In this document: piece by piece, positions 547-45,262 of the stretch
Layout of the letters: each line of letters begins with the position of its first letter
How positions within the stretch are numbered: the first letter of the stretch is position 1
Source of the DNA: an uncultured Bacilli bacterium
GTDB taxonomy: Bacteria; Bacillota_I; Bacilli_A; RF39; UBA660
Assembly (NCBI GenBank): GCA_934168205.1
Contig: CAKPMX010000001.1
Coordinates: forward strand, 510,603-574,602
Direction: 5' to 3'
Length of the DNA stretch: 64,000 nt
Made by a program: the position numbers and the translations under genes
Notes under the pieces: model-generated
What the model was told of the DNA's origin: nothing
Seen by the model: the letters and a program-made list of their open reading frames with translations, nothing else
The model's database searches: none

Positions 547-3500
547 ATGAGATTATATATTCAAGAACAAAACAGATTAATAAAATATAACCTACCAGCA
601 AAGGTAGATGGTTCCCTATTATTCTCTTATAAGTCATATGATACAGGTATAGAAAACTCAATAAATATTGACTCAAATCAAAATAATTGGATTTTAAAGA
701 GTAATGGAAATGTAAACATTGTCGGAACAAATGCTAACGTAACAGAAGCAGTACTATCTGACTACATATGTATTCCTGTGTCAACTCTAGGGCATCCAGG
801 ATACATATGTATGTTTTGTTTACCATCAATTGAAGAAGAGTCACTTAATTTAAGTACAGAAAAATTAAATCAAATAACAATAGGAAAAAGTCATGATAAT
901 AACATAGTTTATCATCAAAACATGATGTTTGATAAACATGCCATAATCTTTAAAAATAATGACATCTGGTACGTATCACCAGCTGTTCAAAATGAAAACT
1001 GCTATTTATATTTGAATAGTGCCAGAATAACAAATCCAACACCAATGACTGTTGGAGATGTAATATTTATGAACGGATTAAAAATAGTTTGGATGAAATC
1101 GTTCTTCAAACTATCTATGAATAAATCATTATATGAATATGCTGGATTAACTCCAGTTAATGATAATGTTCTAGCAAGTAACGAGGATATTACAGAAGTA
1201 AGCGAAGCTGAAAGTAACGTATCTTTATATAAAGATGATGAATATTTTTCACATACACCAAGAATCAGAAGTGTACTAGAAACTAAAGAAGTAAATGTTG
1301 AAGCCCCTCCAGGTAAATTTGTTAGTAATGAGGAAATGCCTTTAATTTTAAGTTTGGGTACTAGTTTAACCATGTCAGCAATGTCATTTATGAATATATA
1401 TTCTATTTACGATAATATAGTAAATAAGAAAATGGATGTTTCAACACAAGTAACTGGAATAATCACTTGCTCAACAATGCTTATAAGTTCATTGTTATTA
1501 CCTTTCTTAACAAAACGTTGGCAAAAGAAATCTTTAAAAAGAAAAGAAGCAAAACGTCAAGAAAAGTATGGAGAATACTTACGAAAAAAAGAAGAAGAAA
1601 TACAATTAATATTAAAAAAACAGTCACAAATAATATTTGAAAATTATAGTGATTTAACAGGCTGTAAAAATATAATAGCTAATCGTACCAGAGCTTTATG
1701 GTGTCGAGAAATAAATGATGAAGATTTTATTAATGTCAGACTAGGAATTGGTAGTAGACCTGCCCTTCTAAAAATAAATGCTCCAGAAGAAAAATTCTCT
1801 TTAGAAGATGATAATTTATATCAAATGGTATGTAGTATAAAGAAGAAATACGAAAGACTTCAAGATATACCAATAACATATAGTCTAAAAGAAGAACCTG
1901 TGTCAGCACTAATAACAGTTAGTAAGTATAATGATGCTTTTATAAATAGTATTATGCTACAATTAATAACTTATCAAAGTCCATTAGATTTAAAATTAAT
2001 CATTATTACAGATGAGAAAAACGCTGATAAATGGAGTTATACAAGATATTTACCACATTGTTGGAGTGATGATAAAACTACCAGATATTTTGCATCAAAT
2101 CAAGAAGATTTGAAAAAGCTATGTCAAATATTAGATGAAGAATATGTAAATAGAAAAACTAAGAAACAGGAACGCGAACAAGAACAAAGAGAAAAAATCA
2201 AAGAAACCGTAGAAGAACACGCAATATATGATTCATATTATTTAATTATCACAGATAATTTTTTAGATTTAAAAAACTTTAAATTCACAAATGATTTGCT
2301 AGAAAATCAAAATAACTATGGTTTTTCAATGTTGATAATCGAAAACGATATGAAACACTTACCAAAGGAATGCCAAAAGTTCGTATGTATAAATGATGGA
2401 GAATCTGGAATATTCTCTGAAAAAATCAAAGAAGATGAAATGATTAAGTTTAATGCTGAATATGACAGTACTTTAGATATGAGAAAGTTAGGAAATTTAG
2501 TAAGCAACATTCCAATTCAAGGAAAGGATGCAGAACAAGAGCTTCCTAATATGTTACCATTCTTGGAAATGTACAATGTTGGTAAAATTGAACAGTTAAA
2601 TATTAGAAACCGTTGGACAACTTCCGATCCAATAACAACATTACAAACTCCCGTTGGAGTACATAAAAATGGTGAATTATTTAAATTAGACTTACATGAA
2701 AAGTATGATGGACCACATGGACTTATTGCCGGTTCTACTGGATCTGGTAAATCTGAATTTATAATAACTTATATCTTATCGATGGCCATTAATTATGATC
2801 CAGATGAAGTACAATTTGTCTTAATCGATTATAAAGGTGGAGGCCTAGCTGGAGCCTTTGAAAACCGTGAACAAGGAATATCTATTCCACATCTTGCCGG
2901 TACAATAACAAACTTAGATACAGCTGAAATGAACAGAACTTTAGTTTCAATAGAAAGTGAATTAAAAAGAAGACAGAAAAAGTTCAATGAAGAAAGAGAA
3001 AAAACTGGCGAAAGTACAATGGACATCTATAAGTATCAAAGATTATATAGAGAAGGTGTCATAAAAGAACCTATTTCTCATTTGTTCATTATTTCAGACG
3101 AGTTCGCCGAATTAAAATCACAACAACCAGACTTCATGAATCAATTAATATCAACCGCTCGTATTGGGCGTTCTTTAGGAGTTCACCTTATTCTAGCAAC
3201 ACAGAAACCTTCAGGAGTAGTTAACGATCAAATCTGGTCAAACTCAAAATTTAAAGTGTGTTTAAAAGTACAAAGTAAATCAGACAGTATGGAAATGTTA
3301 AAAAGACCTGAAGCTGCTAGCATAAAAGAAACAGGTAGATTCTATTTACAAGTAGGCTATGATGAATACTTTGATATTGGACAGTCAGCTTGGTCTGGAG
3401 AAAGATATACACCTGTTGAAAGAATCGTTAAAAAAATAGATGACTCTATAGTTTTTGTAAATGATTCAGGAGAAACAGTAAAAAGAATAAATGATGCTCC

Positions 3501-43600: not shown

Positions 43601-45262
43601 AATAAACAAAATGAAGTTCAAGTAACATCAAAAGGTGAAGAAATAACAAATATCATCAAATATATAATTGAAGAAGCAAAGCAAACATCTGTAAGTATTC
43701 CACAACTATGGCTAGATAGAATTCCAAATTATATCTACGTTGAGGACTTAAAAGCTAAATATAACTATCAAACAAAGAAGAACAATATCAATCCGATCAT
43801 TGGTGAATATGATGATCCAGATAACCAAAGACAAAATGTTTTAACACTACCTTTATCATCTGGTGGCAATTCTATAATCTATGGTTCAACAGGTTCAGGT
43901 AAAGAACTAATGTTATCGACAATTATATATTCAACTATAACTACACATGATTCATCAGAAGTTAATTTCTATTTACTAGATTTTGGTGCAGAAACACTAG
44001 CAATGTTTAAAAATGCTCCACACATTGGTGAAGTATTACTATCTGGAGAAAATGAAAAAATTGCAAACTTATTCAAATTAATTACTCAAGTAATGGATGA
44101 AAGAAAGAAAATATTTGTCGACTACAATGGTTCATTTGATTTTTATATAAACCATGGTGGAAAACAAATGCCATTAATTGTTGTTGCAATAAACAATGTC
44201 GAAGGCTTCCTTGAATTATATCCTGACTATGAAGATGTTTTAGGACAAATAACAAGAGAATGTTTAAAATATGGTATTGTCTTTATTCTAACAACGAATG
44301 GTCCTAATACTATTAGATATCGTCTACGTCAAAACTTTGCACAAAATATTGTTTTACAATTTAACGATCCTTCTGATTATGCTAGCGTTCTCGCTGGAGT
44401 ACGTAAAAAAGAACCATCAAAAGGATTTGGTAGAGGACTAGTAGACCTAGATGGCATTTTCGAATTCCAAACCGCATACTCATTCAAAGAAGAAAAGATG
44501 ACTGATTATATCAGAGTTATTTGTAATAAATTAAATAAAATATGCGAATATAAAGCTAAGAAAATACCTGTATTGCCAGAAACAGTTACTCAAGAATACT
44601 TATTACCATCATTACGTGGCTTATTATCAATTCCAGTTGGTGTACAAAAGGAAACTCTAGAAATCGCAAGTATCAGTTTGAAGAATGGTATTTACGTAAT
44701 TACTGGCGAAGATATAACTTCTATACAACCATTCTTAACAGGACTATCTAGAATGCTTTTAAAAATACCAAGCAGCAAGTGTATTATGTTAGATGCTCTT
44801 AGTATATTGTCAGATAATCCACCAAAAAATGTTACGTATGACAAAGGCAACTGTACGGCAGGCATTGAAGAGGTAACGACAGCTCTATATACTAAACAGG
44901 TTGAAAATACAGAAGACCCTGTAATTTGTATAATTACCGGTATAAGTACTCTTCTATCAAAACTAGATGCAGTTAAAAAAGGTGAGTTTACAACTAACAT
45001 AAATGAAGCTATAAAACTAGGAACAATCAAATTTATCTTTGTAGAGAGAATAGATAATATCAAGTCTCTTAATTATGAAGCTTGGTTCAAAGCAAATGTT
45101 GACTTATCTGAAGGAATCTGGATAGGAAATGGAATCAGTAATCAATTCACTCTAAAAGTAACTACAAATTCTCGTTTACTAAGAGTGGAATTAGAGCCAA
45201 ACTTTGGATATGTAGTAACAAAAGGAAAAGCTGCTGTTACTAAGTTCCTTTCAGACGAGTAG
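40688..45262 (+). CDS. essC: type VIIb secretion system ATPase EssC/YukBA (copy 2)
   Basis: 1524 aa from GTG 40688 (RBS AGAGGG). Same architecture as copy 1: D1 Walker A [14 protein letters not shown], D2 GSTGSGKE, degenerate D3. About 75 percent identical to copy 1 across the TM-DUF-D1 region (e.g. the identical [23 protein letters not shown] and [18 protein letters not shown] blocks), but the C-terminal third is divergent. Confidence 0.85.
   Translation: [1524 protein letters not shown]

What the first reader, a model, noticed from the sequence alone, without database searches (positions are those of the whole stretch)
547..45262. The two EssC paralogues share N-terminal and D1 regions but diverge at the C-terminus
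Long blocks are nearly identical between the copies, for example [16 protein letters not shown], [15 protein letters not shown] and [36 protein letters not shown]. The last roughly 400 residues (D3 and linker) show little similarity. In known T7SSb systems the EssC C-terminus selects the substrate set. The matched divergence of the downstream small proteins (WXG100 trio versus two ~70-aa ORFs) fits two substrate-specific modules.
Basis: partly seen in the sequence, partly recalled or inferred. Interest (0 to 1): 0.55.

Follow-up and report, generated by a model that had tools for sequence, protein, structure and literature searches.

The report
Two ancient EssC secretion modules

Summary
Both EssC genes are real (547-5172 and 40688-45262; 41% identical; both above the NCBIfam EssC cut-off). 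The described pattern is only partly right.

- **Shared region:** only ATPase domain D1 is shared (78% identity). The N-terminal 246 residues are the least similar part (25%), below D3 (29%).
- **Not pair-specific:** the identity profile matches the average profile of 477 unrelated EssC pairs of equal overall identity (r = 0.94). No C-terminal window falls below that background.
- **No recombination:** synonymous codons are equally randomised in all domains. The two proteins sit on opposite sides of a 100/100 bootstrap split. This is ancient divergence, not an S. aureus-type essC-variant mosaic.

The "two modules" idea survives. Each EssC is followed by its own YukD-like β-grasp protein and a fixed set of small helical proteins:
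- EssC1: five proteins of about 100 aa plus one of about 150 aa.
- EssC2: a pair of 65-75 aa proteins.

Both cassettes keep this composition across relatives. D3 lacks a P-loop in both and evolves oppositely: conserved in the EssC1 lineage, and carrying a hypervariable stretch (aa ~1281-1430) in the EssC2 lineage.

No EssB, EsaA or EssA gene appears in the window or in any inspected flank. Moderate interest.

The parts
497..526 (+). Best promoter-like match upstream of essC1 (TTGAAA-18-AATAAT). It lies after a hairpin plus T-run that follows the gap stop codon.
   Evidence: This is a consensus match only; promoter-like sites are not enriched over shuffles in this AT-rich DNA.
547..5172 (+). 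EssC1, 1541 aa: FHA-containing N-terminus, two TM helices, D0, D1, D2, D3.
   Evidence: TIGR03928 946 bits against a 778 cut-off; Pfam FHA and FtsK_SpoIIIE. Best solved relative is B. subtilis YukB.
547..1284 (+). EssC1 N-terminal/FHA region (aa 1-246). This is the least conserved part between the paralogues (25%).
2545..3384 (+). EssC1 D1 (aa 667-946).
4435..5172 (+). EssC1 D3 (aa 1297-1541). It has no P-loop, is 29% identical to EssC2 D3, and is well conserved within the EssC1 clade.
5162..5416 (+). YukD-like small protein 1. The ORF opens at 5144; orthologues start at MKNK, which is 5162. It overlaps the end of essC1.
   Evidence: 42% identical to YukD2 and aligns with 9 further orthologues. 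The β-grasp fold is inferred from the YukD2 model.
5420..5740 (+). s106a, a 106-aa helical protein at cassette position 1.
   Evidence: The position is conserved in L003 and L016-L018. No family match.
5752..6066 (+). s104, a 104-aa protein with W-x-G/S at mid-length.
   Evidence: Weak WXG100 hits (Pfam E = 0.025; TIGR03930 E = 0.004).
6054..6356 (+). s100, a 100-aa protein with a WSG motif.
   Evidence: No family match.
6435..6755 (+). s106b, a 106-aa helical protein.
6755..7054 (+). s99, the clearest WXG100-like protein. The W-E/F-G motif is conserved in 6 orthologues, and the C-terminal M..KD..LI is conserved.
   Evidence: Pfam WXG100 below threshold but recurrent in every orthologue scanned (E from 8e-5 to 0.008). 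Highly polymorphic between near-identical genomes.
7069..7527 (+). s152, a 152-aa protein: Gly/Ser-rich N-terminus, then a helical part with AF(K/R)G, then a conserved TQD.DLS.NL..D C-terminus.
   Evidence: Polymorphic between strains.
40623..40651 (+). Best promoter-like match upstream of essC2 (TTGTAA-17-TATAAT, 10 of 12).
   Evidence: consensus match only.
40688..45262 (+). EssC2, 1524 aa, with the same architecture as EssC1.
   Evidence: TIGR03928 996 bits. YukB is the best solved relative. More than 120 orthologues at 70% identity or above, in conserved synteny.
42653..43492 (+). EssC2 D1 (aa 656-935), with canonical Walker A and Walker B.
44528..44977 (+). Hypervariable stretch of EssC2 D3 (aa ~1281-1430).
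   Evidence: Orthologues 91-93% identical upstream fall to 17-55% here and recover to 65-80% afterwards. dN is 3-10 times that of the rest of the gene, with dS saturated everywhere.
45272..45529 (+). YukD-like small protein 2 (85 aa).
   Evidence: AlphaFold2 model with pLDDT 87.8 and ββαβββ topology. Best TM-score is to B. subtilis YukD 2bps_A (0.72/0.75); it also matches the EccD5 ubiquitin-like domain. No Pfam or NCBIfam sequence match.
45539..45742 (+). s67: a short helical hairpin with W25 at the turn, a linker, and a conserved C-terminal MEELGND.
   Evidence: Single-sequence model: H3-24, H28-48, pLDDT 65.
45735..45947 (+). s70: a two-helix protein that overlaps s67 by 8 nt.
   Evidence: Conserved partner of s67 in all EssC2 loci inspected.
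45946..45972 (.). Terminator-like hairpin (10-11 bp) readable on both strands, between s70 and the convergent spoIID.

Best explanation
The window holds two ancient, independently evolving type VII-like export modules. They are not a recombinant pair.

**Composition.** Each module is a compact unit:
- an EssC ATPase (FHA N-terminus, two TM helices, D0-D3);
- its own YukD-like β-grasp protein, encoded immediately downstream;
- its own fixed set of small helical proteins.

**What is shown.**
- The only strongly shared part is D1, the one domain with intact Walker A and B motifs. D1 is 65-95% identical in every EssC comparison made here.
- All other parts have diverged to 23-38%, following the generic constraint profile of the family.
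- The two genes lie in different deep super-clades.
- Both cassettes keep their composition across relatives.

**What is inferred.**
- D1 is the shared motor.
- The diverged FHA/TM/D0 regions and the separate YukD copies keep the two hexamers and their partners apart.
- The P-loop-less D3 domains, helped by conserved C-terminal tails on the small proteins, let each EssC take only its own neighbours as cargo. Candidate tails are MEELGND on s67, M..KD..LI on s99 and TQD.DLS.NL on s152.

**Roles of the two modules.**
- The EssC2 operon is a vertically inherited core feature of the lineage.
- The EssC1 cassette is the accessory one: it is rarer, sits at different chromosomal sites in relatives, and its last two genes are strongly polymorphic between near-identical genomes.
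For: **Identity pattern and age**
- Domain identities and the sliding profile.
- The N-terminus is less similar than D3.
- The profile equals the family background: r = 0.94 and no C-terminal deficit.
- Synonymous-codon identity is flat across domains.
- A 100/100 bootstrap split separates the two super-clades.

**Motifs**
- D1 is canonical, D2 lacks the Walker B D-E pair, and D3 has no P-loop in either copy.

**Cassette conservation and context**
- EssC2 cassette and its synteny.
- EssC1 cassette in three different chromosomal contexts.
- Each EssC in 20 inspected loci is followed directly by an 83-90-aa YukD-like gene.

**Small proteins**
- β-grasp model closest to YukD.
- WXG100-like s99 family.
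- s67 family: hairpin, variable disordered linker and conserved C-terminal tail.

**D3**
- D3 constraint is inverted between the lineages: 33% of positions are conserved only in the EssC1 clade and 10% only in the EssC2 clade, while other domains show 3-9% against 29-39%.
- Strain-level polymorphism of s99 and s152.
- Published work links the EssC/EccC C-terminal domain to substrate choice (PMC4788903 and PMC5994694).
Against: - No experiment or binding prediction links either D3 to any of the small proteins.
- The small proteins of the EssC2 module match no WXG100 model, and the s67 model has low confidence (pLDDT 65).
- Co-variation is weak. The hypervariable part of EssC2 D3 changes much faster than s67 and s70 (48% against 77% and 68%), while the s67 C-terminal tail stays conserved. 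EssC1 D3 stays constant while s99 and s152 change.
- Residues 676-750 at the start of D1 are more similar than the family background (z about +3). This could hint at a shared partner.
- The membrane partners of canonical T7SSb (EssB, EsaA, EssA) were not found nearby, so it is unknown what completes either machine or whether the two share it.
Confidence: 0.7

Rival explanations
1. One reading: an S. aureus-type essC-variant mosaic. The two genes would share a common N-terminal and D1 backbone, and only the C-terminal D3 region would have been exchanged or diverged together with the downstream substrate genes.
For: - D1 is 78% identical and D3 29%.
- The downstream gene sets differ.
- In S. aureus, variability is concentrated in the last ATPase domain (PMC4788903).
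Against: - The N-terminus is the most diverged region (25%).
- The profile equals that of unrelated EssC pairs (r = 0.94).
- Synonymous sites are saturated in all domains.
- The genes lie in different super-clades.
- They are two loci about 40 kb apart in one genome, not alleles of one locus.
Confidence: 0.04
2. One machine with two ATPases. EssC2 and unidentified membrane partners form the core channel, and EssC1 is an accessory ATPase that docks on, or mixes into, the same complex to feed it a second substrate set.
For: - No EssB, EsaA or EssA is encoded next to either gene (and the flank tables).
- D1 is highly similar, and residues 676-750 exceed the family background.
- The EssC1 cassette is rarer and sits at varying sites.
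Against: - The TM, stalk, D0 and FHA regions are only 23-38% identical. In solved T7SS complexes these regions make the oligomer and partner contacts (established knowledge of the family, not tested here).
- Each EssC has its own YukD-like partner, and the two are 42% identical.
- EssC1-type cassettes form a stable unit of their own.
Confidence: 0.12
3. Redundant duplicates drifting apart. The divergence outside D1 would be neutral decay of a spare copy, with no substrate specialisation.
For: - Low identity everywhere except D1.
- The hypervariable D3 stretch in the EssC2 lineage has the highest dN/dS in the gene (0.18-0.34).
Against: - Both genes are intact and have many full-length orthologues.
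- dN/dS is 0.01-0.24 in the other domains.
- D3 of the EssC1 clade is more conserved than its N, TM, D0 and D2 regions.
- Each cassette keeps its own gene set over 60-75% EssC identity.
Confidence: 0.04

Closest known systems
T7SSb EssC/YukB systems of Bacillota (S. aureus Ess, B. subtilis Yuk)
   Same: - Both proteins pass the EssC equivalog model TIGR03928.
- They have the FHA, 2 TM, D0-D3 architecture.
- Their best solved relative is B. subtilis YukB, at 402 and 399 bits.
- A YukD-fold β-grasp protein and WXG100-like small proteins are encoded alongside.
   Different: - No EsaA, EssA or EssB gene occurs in the 64-kb window or within 8-10 kb of essC in about 20 related loci.
- The gene order is essC then yukD-like then small proteins, with housekeeping genes directly upstream. 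It is not esxA-esaA-essA-esaB-essB-essC.
- The YukD-like proteins and the EssC2 small proteins match no Pfam or NCBIfam model.
S. aureus essC1-essC4 variants (also Listeria and group B Streptococcus EssC variants)
   Same: - The last ATPase domain is the variable one and is linked to the choice of downstream substrates (PMC4788903 and PMC5994694).
- Within the EssC2 orthologue clade, a comparable pattern exists: 162 pairs are at least 90% identical over the first 1296 aa but only 55-75% identical in D3.
   Different: - Those variants are alleles at one locus in different strains, with a nearly identical 5' part and evidence of recombination.
- Here there are two loci in one genome, the N-terminus is the most diverged part, and synonymous sites are saturated throughout.
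Paralogous ESX-1 to ESX-5 loci of mycobacteria; co-occurring T7SSf and T7SSj in Clostridium
   Same: Several complete type VII modules sit in one genome, each with its own EccC/EssC ATPase and its own Esx-like small proteins (PMC11217815).
   Different: - ESX loci carry EccB, EccD, EccE and MycP.
- T7SSf and T7SSj carry phosphatase, FHA/DUF6382, kinase or AAA+ partners.
- None of these families appears next to either module here (Pfam lists).
T7SSc-T7SSj subtypes (Garrett, Higginson & Palmer 2024), especially the 'simple' T7SSg
   Same: The universal trio is present in module 1: TsxC (ATPase), TsxB (ubiquitin-like) and TsxA (WXG100). A non-identical pair of small proteins follows EssC2, as in T7SSe and T7SSg.
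   Different: - TsgC lacks FHA domains and T7SSg has the DUF5050 propeller TsgL.
- Here both ATPases have FHA regions and no subtype-specific partner gene was seen.
- That survey used RefSeq genomes. This lineage is known only from metagenome assemblies.

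Membership tests
EssC (T7SSb-type FtsK/SpoIIIE ATPase) | Full-length match to the EssC equivalog model above its curated cut-off | tested here: met
   TIGR03928 scores 946.2 bits (EssC1) and 996 bits (EssC2) against a cut-off of 778.4.
EssC (T7SSb-type FtsK/SpoIIIE ATPase) | N-terminal FHA region, two TM helices, and three P-loop-type domains of which D1 is catalytic | tested here: met
   Pfam FHA (E = 8e-6 and 8e-11) and FtsK_SpoIIIE. Walker A and B are intact only in D1. The TM segments were read from the sequence.
T7SSb system (Ess/Yuk) | EsaB/YukD ubiquitin-like component | tested here: met
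   Met by fold only. The model has pLDDT 87.8, and its best TM-score is to YukD 2bps_A (0.72). No sequence-family match.
T7SSb system (Ess/Yuk) | WXG100 protein (EsxA) encoded in the cluster | tested here: inconclusive
   Module 1: the s99 family hits Pfam WXG100 in every orthologue scanned, but below the gathering score (E from 8e-5 to 0.008, 17-23 bits against 27.3). Module 2: s67 and s70 have no WXG100 hit; a low-confidence model shows a hairpin with W at the turn.
T7SSb system (Ess/Yuk) | Membrane partners EsaA, EssA and EssB encoded with essC | tested here: not met
   None was found among the window ORFs scanned or in the Pfam lists for 8-10 kb on each side of essC in related loci. The rest of the genome could not be searched.
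S. aureus-type essC variant mosaic | Near-identical N-terminal two-thirds, with divergence confined to the last ATPase domain | tested here: not met
   N-terminus 25%, TM/D0 38%, D2 37%, D3 29%. The profile matches the family background, r = 0.94.
S. aureus-type essC variant mosaic | Alleles of one locus, with signs of recombination inside essC | tested here: not met
   The two loci are about 40 kb apart in one genome. Synonymous-codon identity is flat across domains. The genes lie in different super-clades.
T7SSc-j subtypes (PMC11217815) | Subtype-specific partner genes next to the ATPase (kinase TsxD, PPM phosphatase TsxF, vWA TscE, DUF6382-FHA TsxJ, AAA+ TsfV, DUF5050 TsgL, Ig-repeat TsxI) | tested here: not met
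   No such Pfam family appears in the window ORFs scanned or in the flank tables. Proteins without a Pfam hit were not modelled.

The most novel reading that the evidence does not exclude
These could be ATPase + YukD-like + small-helical-protein-only type VII modules: a reduced T7SS arrangement outside subtypes a-j, in an uncultured, small-genome, spore-forming Bacilli lineage. The lineage has contigs up to 1.42 Mb, and its relatives are named 'Tenericutes' or 'Bacilli bacterium' in NCBI.

On this reading the genome would lack EssB, EsaA and EssA altogether. The EssC2 operon would be a core, syntenic feature that exports a miniature WXG-like pair of 65-75 aa. In that pair, s67 would carry a C-terminal (M/V)E(E/A)LG(N/D)(D/E) signal on a linker of freely variable length. 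A hypervariable patch in the P-loop-less D3 would evolve under pressure unrelated to the cargo.
Probability: 0.3. Interest if true: 0.65.

Novelty: new variant of a known kind. Interest (0 to 1): 0.38.

Why it matters
As stated, the finding is mostly explained. High D1 identity with low identity at both ends is what any two distant EssC proteins show, so no domain swap needs to be invoked.

What remains useful:
- **A natural contrast.** One genome holds two complete, minimal EssC cassettes with non-overlapping small-protein sets and oppositely constrained D3 domains. This is a clean system for asking what makes a T7SS ATPase choose its cargo.
- **A test of minimal requirements.** If the canonical membrane partners are truly absent from the genome, the modules would show how little is needed for type VII export in a monoderm cell.
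- **A testable signal hypothesis.** The s67 family (hairpin, elastic linker, fixed C-terminal heptapeptide) offers a simple candidate for signal recognition.

Tried and rejected
- **Gene conversion in D1.** Rejected. Same-codon frequency at identical residues is 0.61 in D1 against 0.52-0.64 elsewhere, and the longest shared exact DNA run is about 20 nt.
- **Pair-specific excess divergence of the C-terminus.** Rejected by the 477-pair background.
- **Homology between the two sets of small proteins.** hhalign on locus-derived alignments gave nothing above 25% probability. The alignments are shallow, so this is weak negative evidence.
- **Profile searches against PDB sequences.** YukD-like, s67 and s70 profiles gave only chance or coiled-coil hits.
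- **Structure prediction with locus-derived alignments.** YukD2 was modelled with database homologues instead, and s67 only as a single sequence (pLDDT 65), so no fold search was run on s67.
- **Co-occurrence of both EssC types in other genomes via cluster accessions.** Uninformative.
- **Recent cassette swap at the EssC2 D3 hypervariable stretch.** Not supported. dS is saturated along the whole gene (1.0-2.4), and the genomes compared are only about 82% identical in DNA.
- **Promoter and terminator scans.** The best-scoring promoter-like sites lie upstream of both essC genes. The scan as a whole is not above chance in this AT-rich DNA.
- **Literature search for T7SS in this lineage.** Found nothing.

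Full report
**1. What is in the sequence**

The window has two very long ORFs on the + strand, 535-5172 and 40688-45262.
- Both carry Pfam FHA and FtsK_SpoIIIE domains.
- Both score above the curated cut-off of the NCBIfam EssC equivalog TIGR03928: 946 and 996 bits against 778.
- The best solved relative of each is B. subtilis YukB, at 399 and 402 bits.

A GAGGTG ribosome-binding site lies just upstream, the 99%-identical database protein P0001 is 1541 aa long, and the paralogue alignment begins at that methionine. The two proteins are 41% identical over 1539 aligned columns with 22 gaps.

**2. Check of the observation**

A 50-residue sliding window and a domain breakdown give these identities:

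| Region (EssC1 numbering) | Identity |
|---|---|
| N-terminal/FHA, 1-246 | 0.23-0.25 |
| TM and stalk | 0.38 |
| D0 | 0.38 |
| D1, 667-946 | 0.78 |
| D2 | 0.37 |
| D3, 1297-1541 | 0.28-0.29 |

- Aligned alone, the first 246 residues are 25% identical (E = 5e-22). D3 alone is 29% identical (E = 1e-31) and aligns end to end.
- So "share N-terminal" is wrong: the N-terminus is the least similar part.
- The C-terminus is not uniquely diverged either.

**3. Is the pattern more than any two EssC proteins would show?**

I collected 236 full-length homologues, aligned them with the two window proteins and clustered them. I then computed the same sliding profile for 477 pairs drawn from different clades with 36-46% overall identity, excluding EssC1-clade against EssC2-clade pairs.
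- The EssC1-EssC2 profile correlates with the mean of those pairs at r = 0.94.
- No window in the last 400 residues lies below background (z from -0.5 to +1.8).
- The only departure is an excess of similarity at residues 676-750, the start of D1 (z about +3).
- D1 is 65-95% identical in every comparison made.

The pattern is therefore the family's general constraint profile.

**4. Recombination or age?**

- At aligned positions with identical amino acids, the fraction using the same codon is 0.52-0.64 in all six regions (D1: 0.61). Codon usage alone predicts 0.51-0.56.
- The longest shared exact DNA runs are about 20 nt.
- There is no sign of gene conversion in D1 or of a younger shared segment.
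- In a neighbour-joining tree of 37 representatives, EssC1 with ten other clades and EssC2 with ten other clades fall on opposite sides of a split with 100/100 bootstrap support.
- Each protein is closer to other clades (45-50%) than to its partner in the window (41%).

The two genes are ancient relatives. Whether the second copy arrived by duplication or by transfer cannot be told from these data.

**5. The two cassettes**

*EssC1 cassette.* EssC1 is followed by:
- an 84-90-aa ORF (5162/5144-5416);
- five ORFs of 99-106 aa (5420-7054);
- a 152-aa ORF (7069-7527).

*EssC2 cassette.* EssC2 is followed by an 85-aa ORF (45272-45529), a 67-aa ORF and a 70-aa ORF (45539-45947). A terminator-like hairpin follows at 45946-45972.

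*The YukD-like proteins.*
- The 84-90-aa and 85-aa proteins are homologous to each other (42%) and to the ORF that directly follows essC in every related locus inspected.
- They match no Pfam or NCBIfam model.
- An AlphaFold2 model built on 32 sequences (pLDDT 87.8) is a ββαβββ β-grasp. Its best TM-score in the PDB is to B. subtilis YukD (2bps_A, 0.72/0.75), and it also matches the ubiquitin-like domain of EccD5.

*Module 1 small proteins.*
- The s99 family keeps a W-E/F-G motif and hits Pfam WXG100 in every orthologue scanned, always below the gathering score (E from 8e-5 to 0.008).
- s104 and s100 have W-x-G/S motifs that are less well conserved.

*Module 2 small proteins.*
- Neither s67 nor s70 matches any model.
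- The s67 family is small: 89 clusters at 50% identity among 1.84 billion representatives.
- It has a distinctive build. A conserved N-terminal stretch of about 52 residues is predicted as a helical hairpin with Trp25 at the turn (single-sequence model, pLDDT 65).
- A disordered P/Q/E-rich linker of about 10 to 150 residues follows, and then a conserved C-terminal (M/V)E(E/A/G)LG(N/D)(D/E).
- From general knowledge of the family, this layout resembles EsxB/CFP-10-type substrates, whose flexible C-terminal tail is the signal seen by the ATPase. That link is an inference and was not tested.
- hhalign found no relationship between the small-protein families of the two modules (at most 25% probability, on shallow alignments).

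**6. Conservation of the cassettes elsewhere**

*EssC2.*
- The operon essC2, 85-aa gene, 65-75-aa gene and 70-72-aa gene recurs with the same neighbours in orthologues down to 71% identity.
- Upstream lie rplM, rpsI, two small ORFs, a ZIP transporter and an Amidase_3 gene. Downstream lie convergent spoIID, a PLPC-type gene, Abi_2 and htrA.
- More than 120 database clusters are at least 70% identical to EssC2, on contigs up to 1.42 Mb.

*EssC1.*
- The eight-gene cassette is also kept down to 61-66% EssC identity, but in different places.
- It sits between gap and pgk here and in L001, L003/L007 and L017. It sits between proS and secG-rnr in L002 and L016, and between a Germane-domain gene and prsW in L018.
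- In more distant clades of the same super-clade, the YukD-like gene is followed by other WXG-like ORFs (L006, L021).

*Missing partners.* No EssB/YukC, EsaA or EssA family, and none of the partner families of T7SSc-j, appears among the window ORFs scanned or in the precomputed Pfam lists of any flank. The remainder of the genome could not be searched.

**7. D3 behaves differently in the two lineages**

*Motifs.*
- D1 has canonical Walker A and B in both proteins.
- D2 keeps G..GSGKE but has N-N in place of the Walker B D-E.
- D3 has no P-loop in either, and carries clade-specific sequences.

*Clade-level identity.*

| Clade | N | TM | D0 | D2 | D3 | Overall |
|---|---|---|---|---|---|---|
| EssC1 clade (typical values) | ~0.50 | ~0.45 | ~0.55 | ~0.61 | ~0.67 | n/a |
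| EssC2 clade (means) | n/a | n/a | n/a | n/a | 0.51 | 0.73 |

D3 is better conserved than the other non-D1 domains in the EssC1 clade and is the fastest-evolving domain in the EssC2 clade.

*Position-level constraint.* Thirty-three per cent of D3 positions are conserved only in the EssC1 clade and 10% only in the EssC2 clade. In every other domain the figures are 3-9% and 29-39% (for D1, 6% and 10%).

*The hypervariable stretch in EssC2.*
- Within the EssC2 clade, 162 pairs are at least 90% identical over the first 1296 aligned residues (EssC1 numbering) yet only 55-75% identical in D3.
- Identity falls sharply at about residue 1281, reaches 17-55% up to about 1430, and then recovers to 65-80%.
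- Nei-Gojobori estimates on four pairs show dN in this stretch at 3-10 times that of the rest of the gene. dS is saturated (1.0-2.4) along the whole gene, and dN/dS is 0.18-0.34.
- This is fast local evolution between species-level relatives, not a recent cassette exchange. These saturated pairs cannot separate positive selection from relaxed constraint.

**8. Does D3 co-vary with the small proteins?**

Only loosely.
- Across EssC2 loci, D3 (69, 56, 54 and 47% to the window copy) and s67 and s70 (82/73, 50/53, 53/40, about 24/33%) all fall faster than N, D0, D2 and YukD2 (71-92%).
- In the closest informative pair (L009 against L022), the first 1277 residues are 91% identical, the hypervariable stretch 48%, YukD2 91%, and the two small proteins 77% and 68%. 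Ordinary neighbours range from 72 to 93%.
- In the EssC1 lineage the reverse holds. Two genomes 95-97% identical in flanking DNA keep D3 at 95-96%, but their s99 and s152 are only 59-66% identical to the window's. DNA identity drops to 67-81% across 6751-7500.
- The small proteins therefore evolve fast in both modules, but D3 does not track them one for one.

**9. How it most likely works**

*Shown.* There are two complete, separately conserved cassettes. Each has an EssC with one catalytic domain (D1), a non-catalytic D2, a P-loop-less D3, its own β-grasp partner and its own small helical proteins. The divergence is ancient.

*Inferred.*
- Each EssC forms its own oligomer, because its FHA, TM and D0 regions and its YukD copy have diverged to 23-42%.
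- Each EssC exports the small proteins encoded behind it.
- Recognition uses D3 and conserved C-terminal motifs on the cargo. This follows published work that ties the last ATPase domain of EssC/EccC to substrate choice (PMC4788903 and PMC5994694).
- The EssC2 operon looks like a core function of the lineage. The EssC1 cassette looks accessory, and its polymorphic last two genes fit a role in interactions with other cells.

*Main rival.* A shared machine in which EssC1 plugs into an EssC2-based channel. The lack of adjacent membrane partners and the extra similarity at 676-750 keep this possible.

**10. Comparison with what is known**

- **Nearest family by sequence and architecture:** T7SSb EssC/YukB. 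The defining membrane partners were looked for nearby and not found, and the gene order differs. I therefore do not file the modules as canonical T7SSb.
- **S. aureus essC1-4 scheme:** it concerns alleles of one locus with a conserved 5' part and recombination inside essC. Its defining features were tested here and not met for this pair. A C-terminal-variable pattern of that general kind does exist among EssC2 orthologues of different genomes.
- **Several type VII modules in one genome:** known from mycobacterial ESX-1 to ESX-5 and from clostridia that carry both T7SSf and T7SSj.
- **Universal trio:** the 2024 survey that defined T7SSc-j found an ATPase, a ubiquitin-like protein and a WXG100 protein to be nearly universal, each subtype adding its own partners. 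The modules here show the trio alone, in a lineage known only from metagenome assemblies. That survey used RefSeq genomes.

**11. Verdict**

- The finding as stated is largely ordinary for this protein family.
- The residual interest lies in three things: the minimal cassette organisation, the opposite evolutionary behaviour of D3 in the two lineages, and the s67-type mini-substrate with its conserved tail.

Noticed in passing
window 167-8791: The EssC1 cassette sits between gap (C-terminal end at 167-472) and pgk (7613-8791), so it splits the usual glycolytic operon. In relatives the same eight-gene cassette lies between proS and secG-rnr (L002, L016) or between a Germane-domain gene and prsW (L018).
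   Followed up: partly
window 6751-7527 (s99, s152); in L003 also 5251-6250: Between genomes that are 95-97% identical in flanking DNA (L001, L003), this part of the cassette is only 67-81% identical in DNA (59-66% in protein). EssC1 itself stays at 97%.
   Followed up: partly
L002:16776-17810, L016:15133-16167, L018:15231-16247, L006:14902-16575, L021:14962-16731: Proteins with an HExxH motif accompany EssC1-super-clade cassettes and have no Pfam match; four of the five have an N-terminal hydrophobic segment or lipoprotein-like start. There are two families: 338-344 aa after the s152-like gene, and 557-589 aa right after the YukD-like gene. No homologue occurs in the window.
   Followed up: partly
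window 44528-44977 (EssC2 aa ~1281-1430) and orthologues P0082-P0238: This is a hypervariable stretch inside D3 of EssC2 orthologues. Identity falls to 17-55% in proteins that are 91-93% identical upstream.
   Followed up: yes
window 45539-45742; P0386-P0474: The s67 family has a conserved N-terminal stretch of about 52 aa. The linker that follows varies from about 10 to 150 residues of P/Q/E-rich sequence, and the last seven residues stay (M/V)E(E/A/G)LG(N/D)(D/E).
   Followed up: partly
window 54095-63930: A low-GC stretch (23-26% against about 30% elsewhere) looks like a defence island. It encodes a metallophosphoesterase, a 905-aa SF1 helicase, a 344-aa protein without matches, an N6/N4 DNA methylase and a type III restriction res-subunit helicase.
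   Followed up: no
window 12323-13114, 39892-40572, 46031-47107: Spo0A, a CwlD-like Amidase_3 and SpoIID are present, so the organism is probably a spore-former. Yet NCBI names for close homologues are 'Tenericutes bacterium' or 'Bacilli bacterium' MAGs, and the longest contigs are about 1.42 Mb.
   Followed up: no
window 8802-11540: Between pgk and tpi lie a 172-aa ORF without matches, an MprF-like lysyl-phosphatidylglycerol synthase TM protein and a GT4 glycosyltransferase. This is a second interruption of the glycolytic gene order.
   Followed up: no
window 36959-37942; L009:6197-7200; L015:4862-5880: A 113-aa two-TM protein and a 213-224-aa protein without Pfam matches are conserved as a pair between rpsI and the ZIP transporter, upstream of the EssC2 operon.
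   Followed up: no
L020:9399-9710, L021:19059-19850: DUF4176 genes lie next to EssC in two more distant clades. L020 also has a 779-aa protein without Pfam matches just upstream of essC.
   Followed up: no
P0146: This EssC2-like protein (81% overall) has a D3 region only 20% identical and carries a ThiF Pfam hit. It may be a chimeric assembly or a fusion.
   Followed up: no
EssC1 aa 676-750 / EssC2 aa 661-735 (window 2572-2796 and 42668-42892): The start of D1 is more similar between the two window proteins (0.78-0.90) than in unrelated EssC pairs (0.60-0.75; z about +3). This is unexplained.
   Followed up: no
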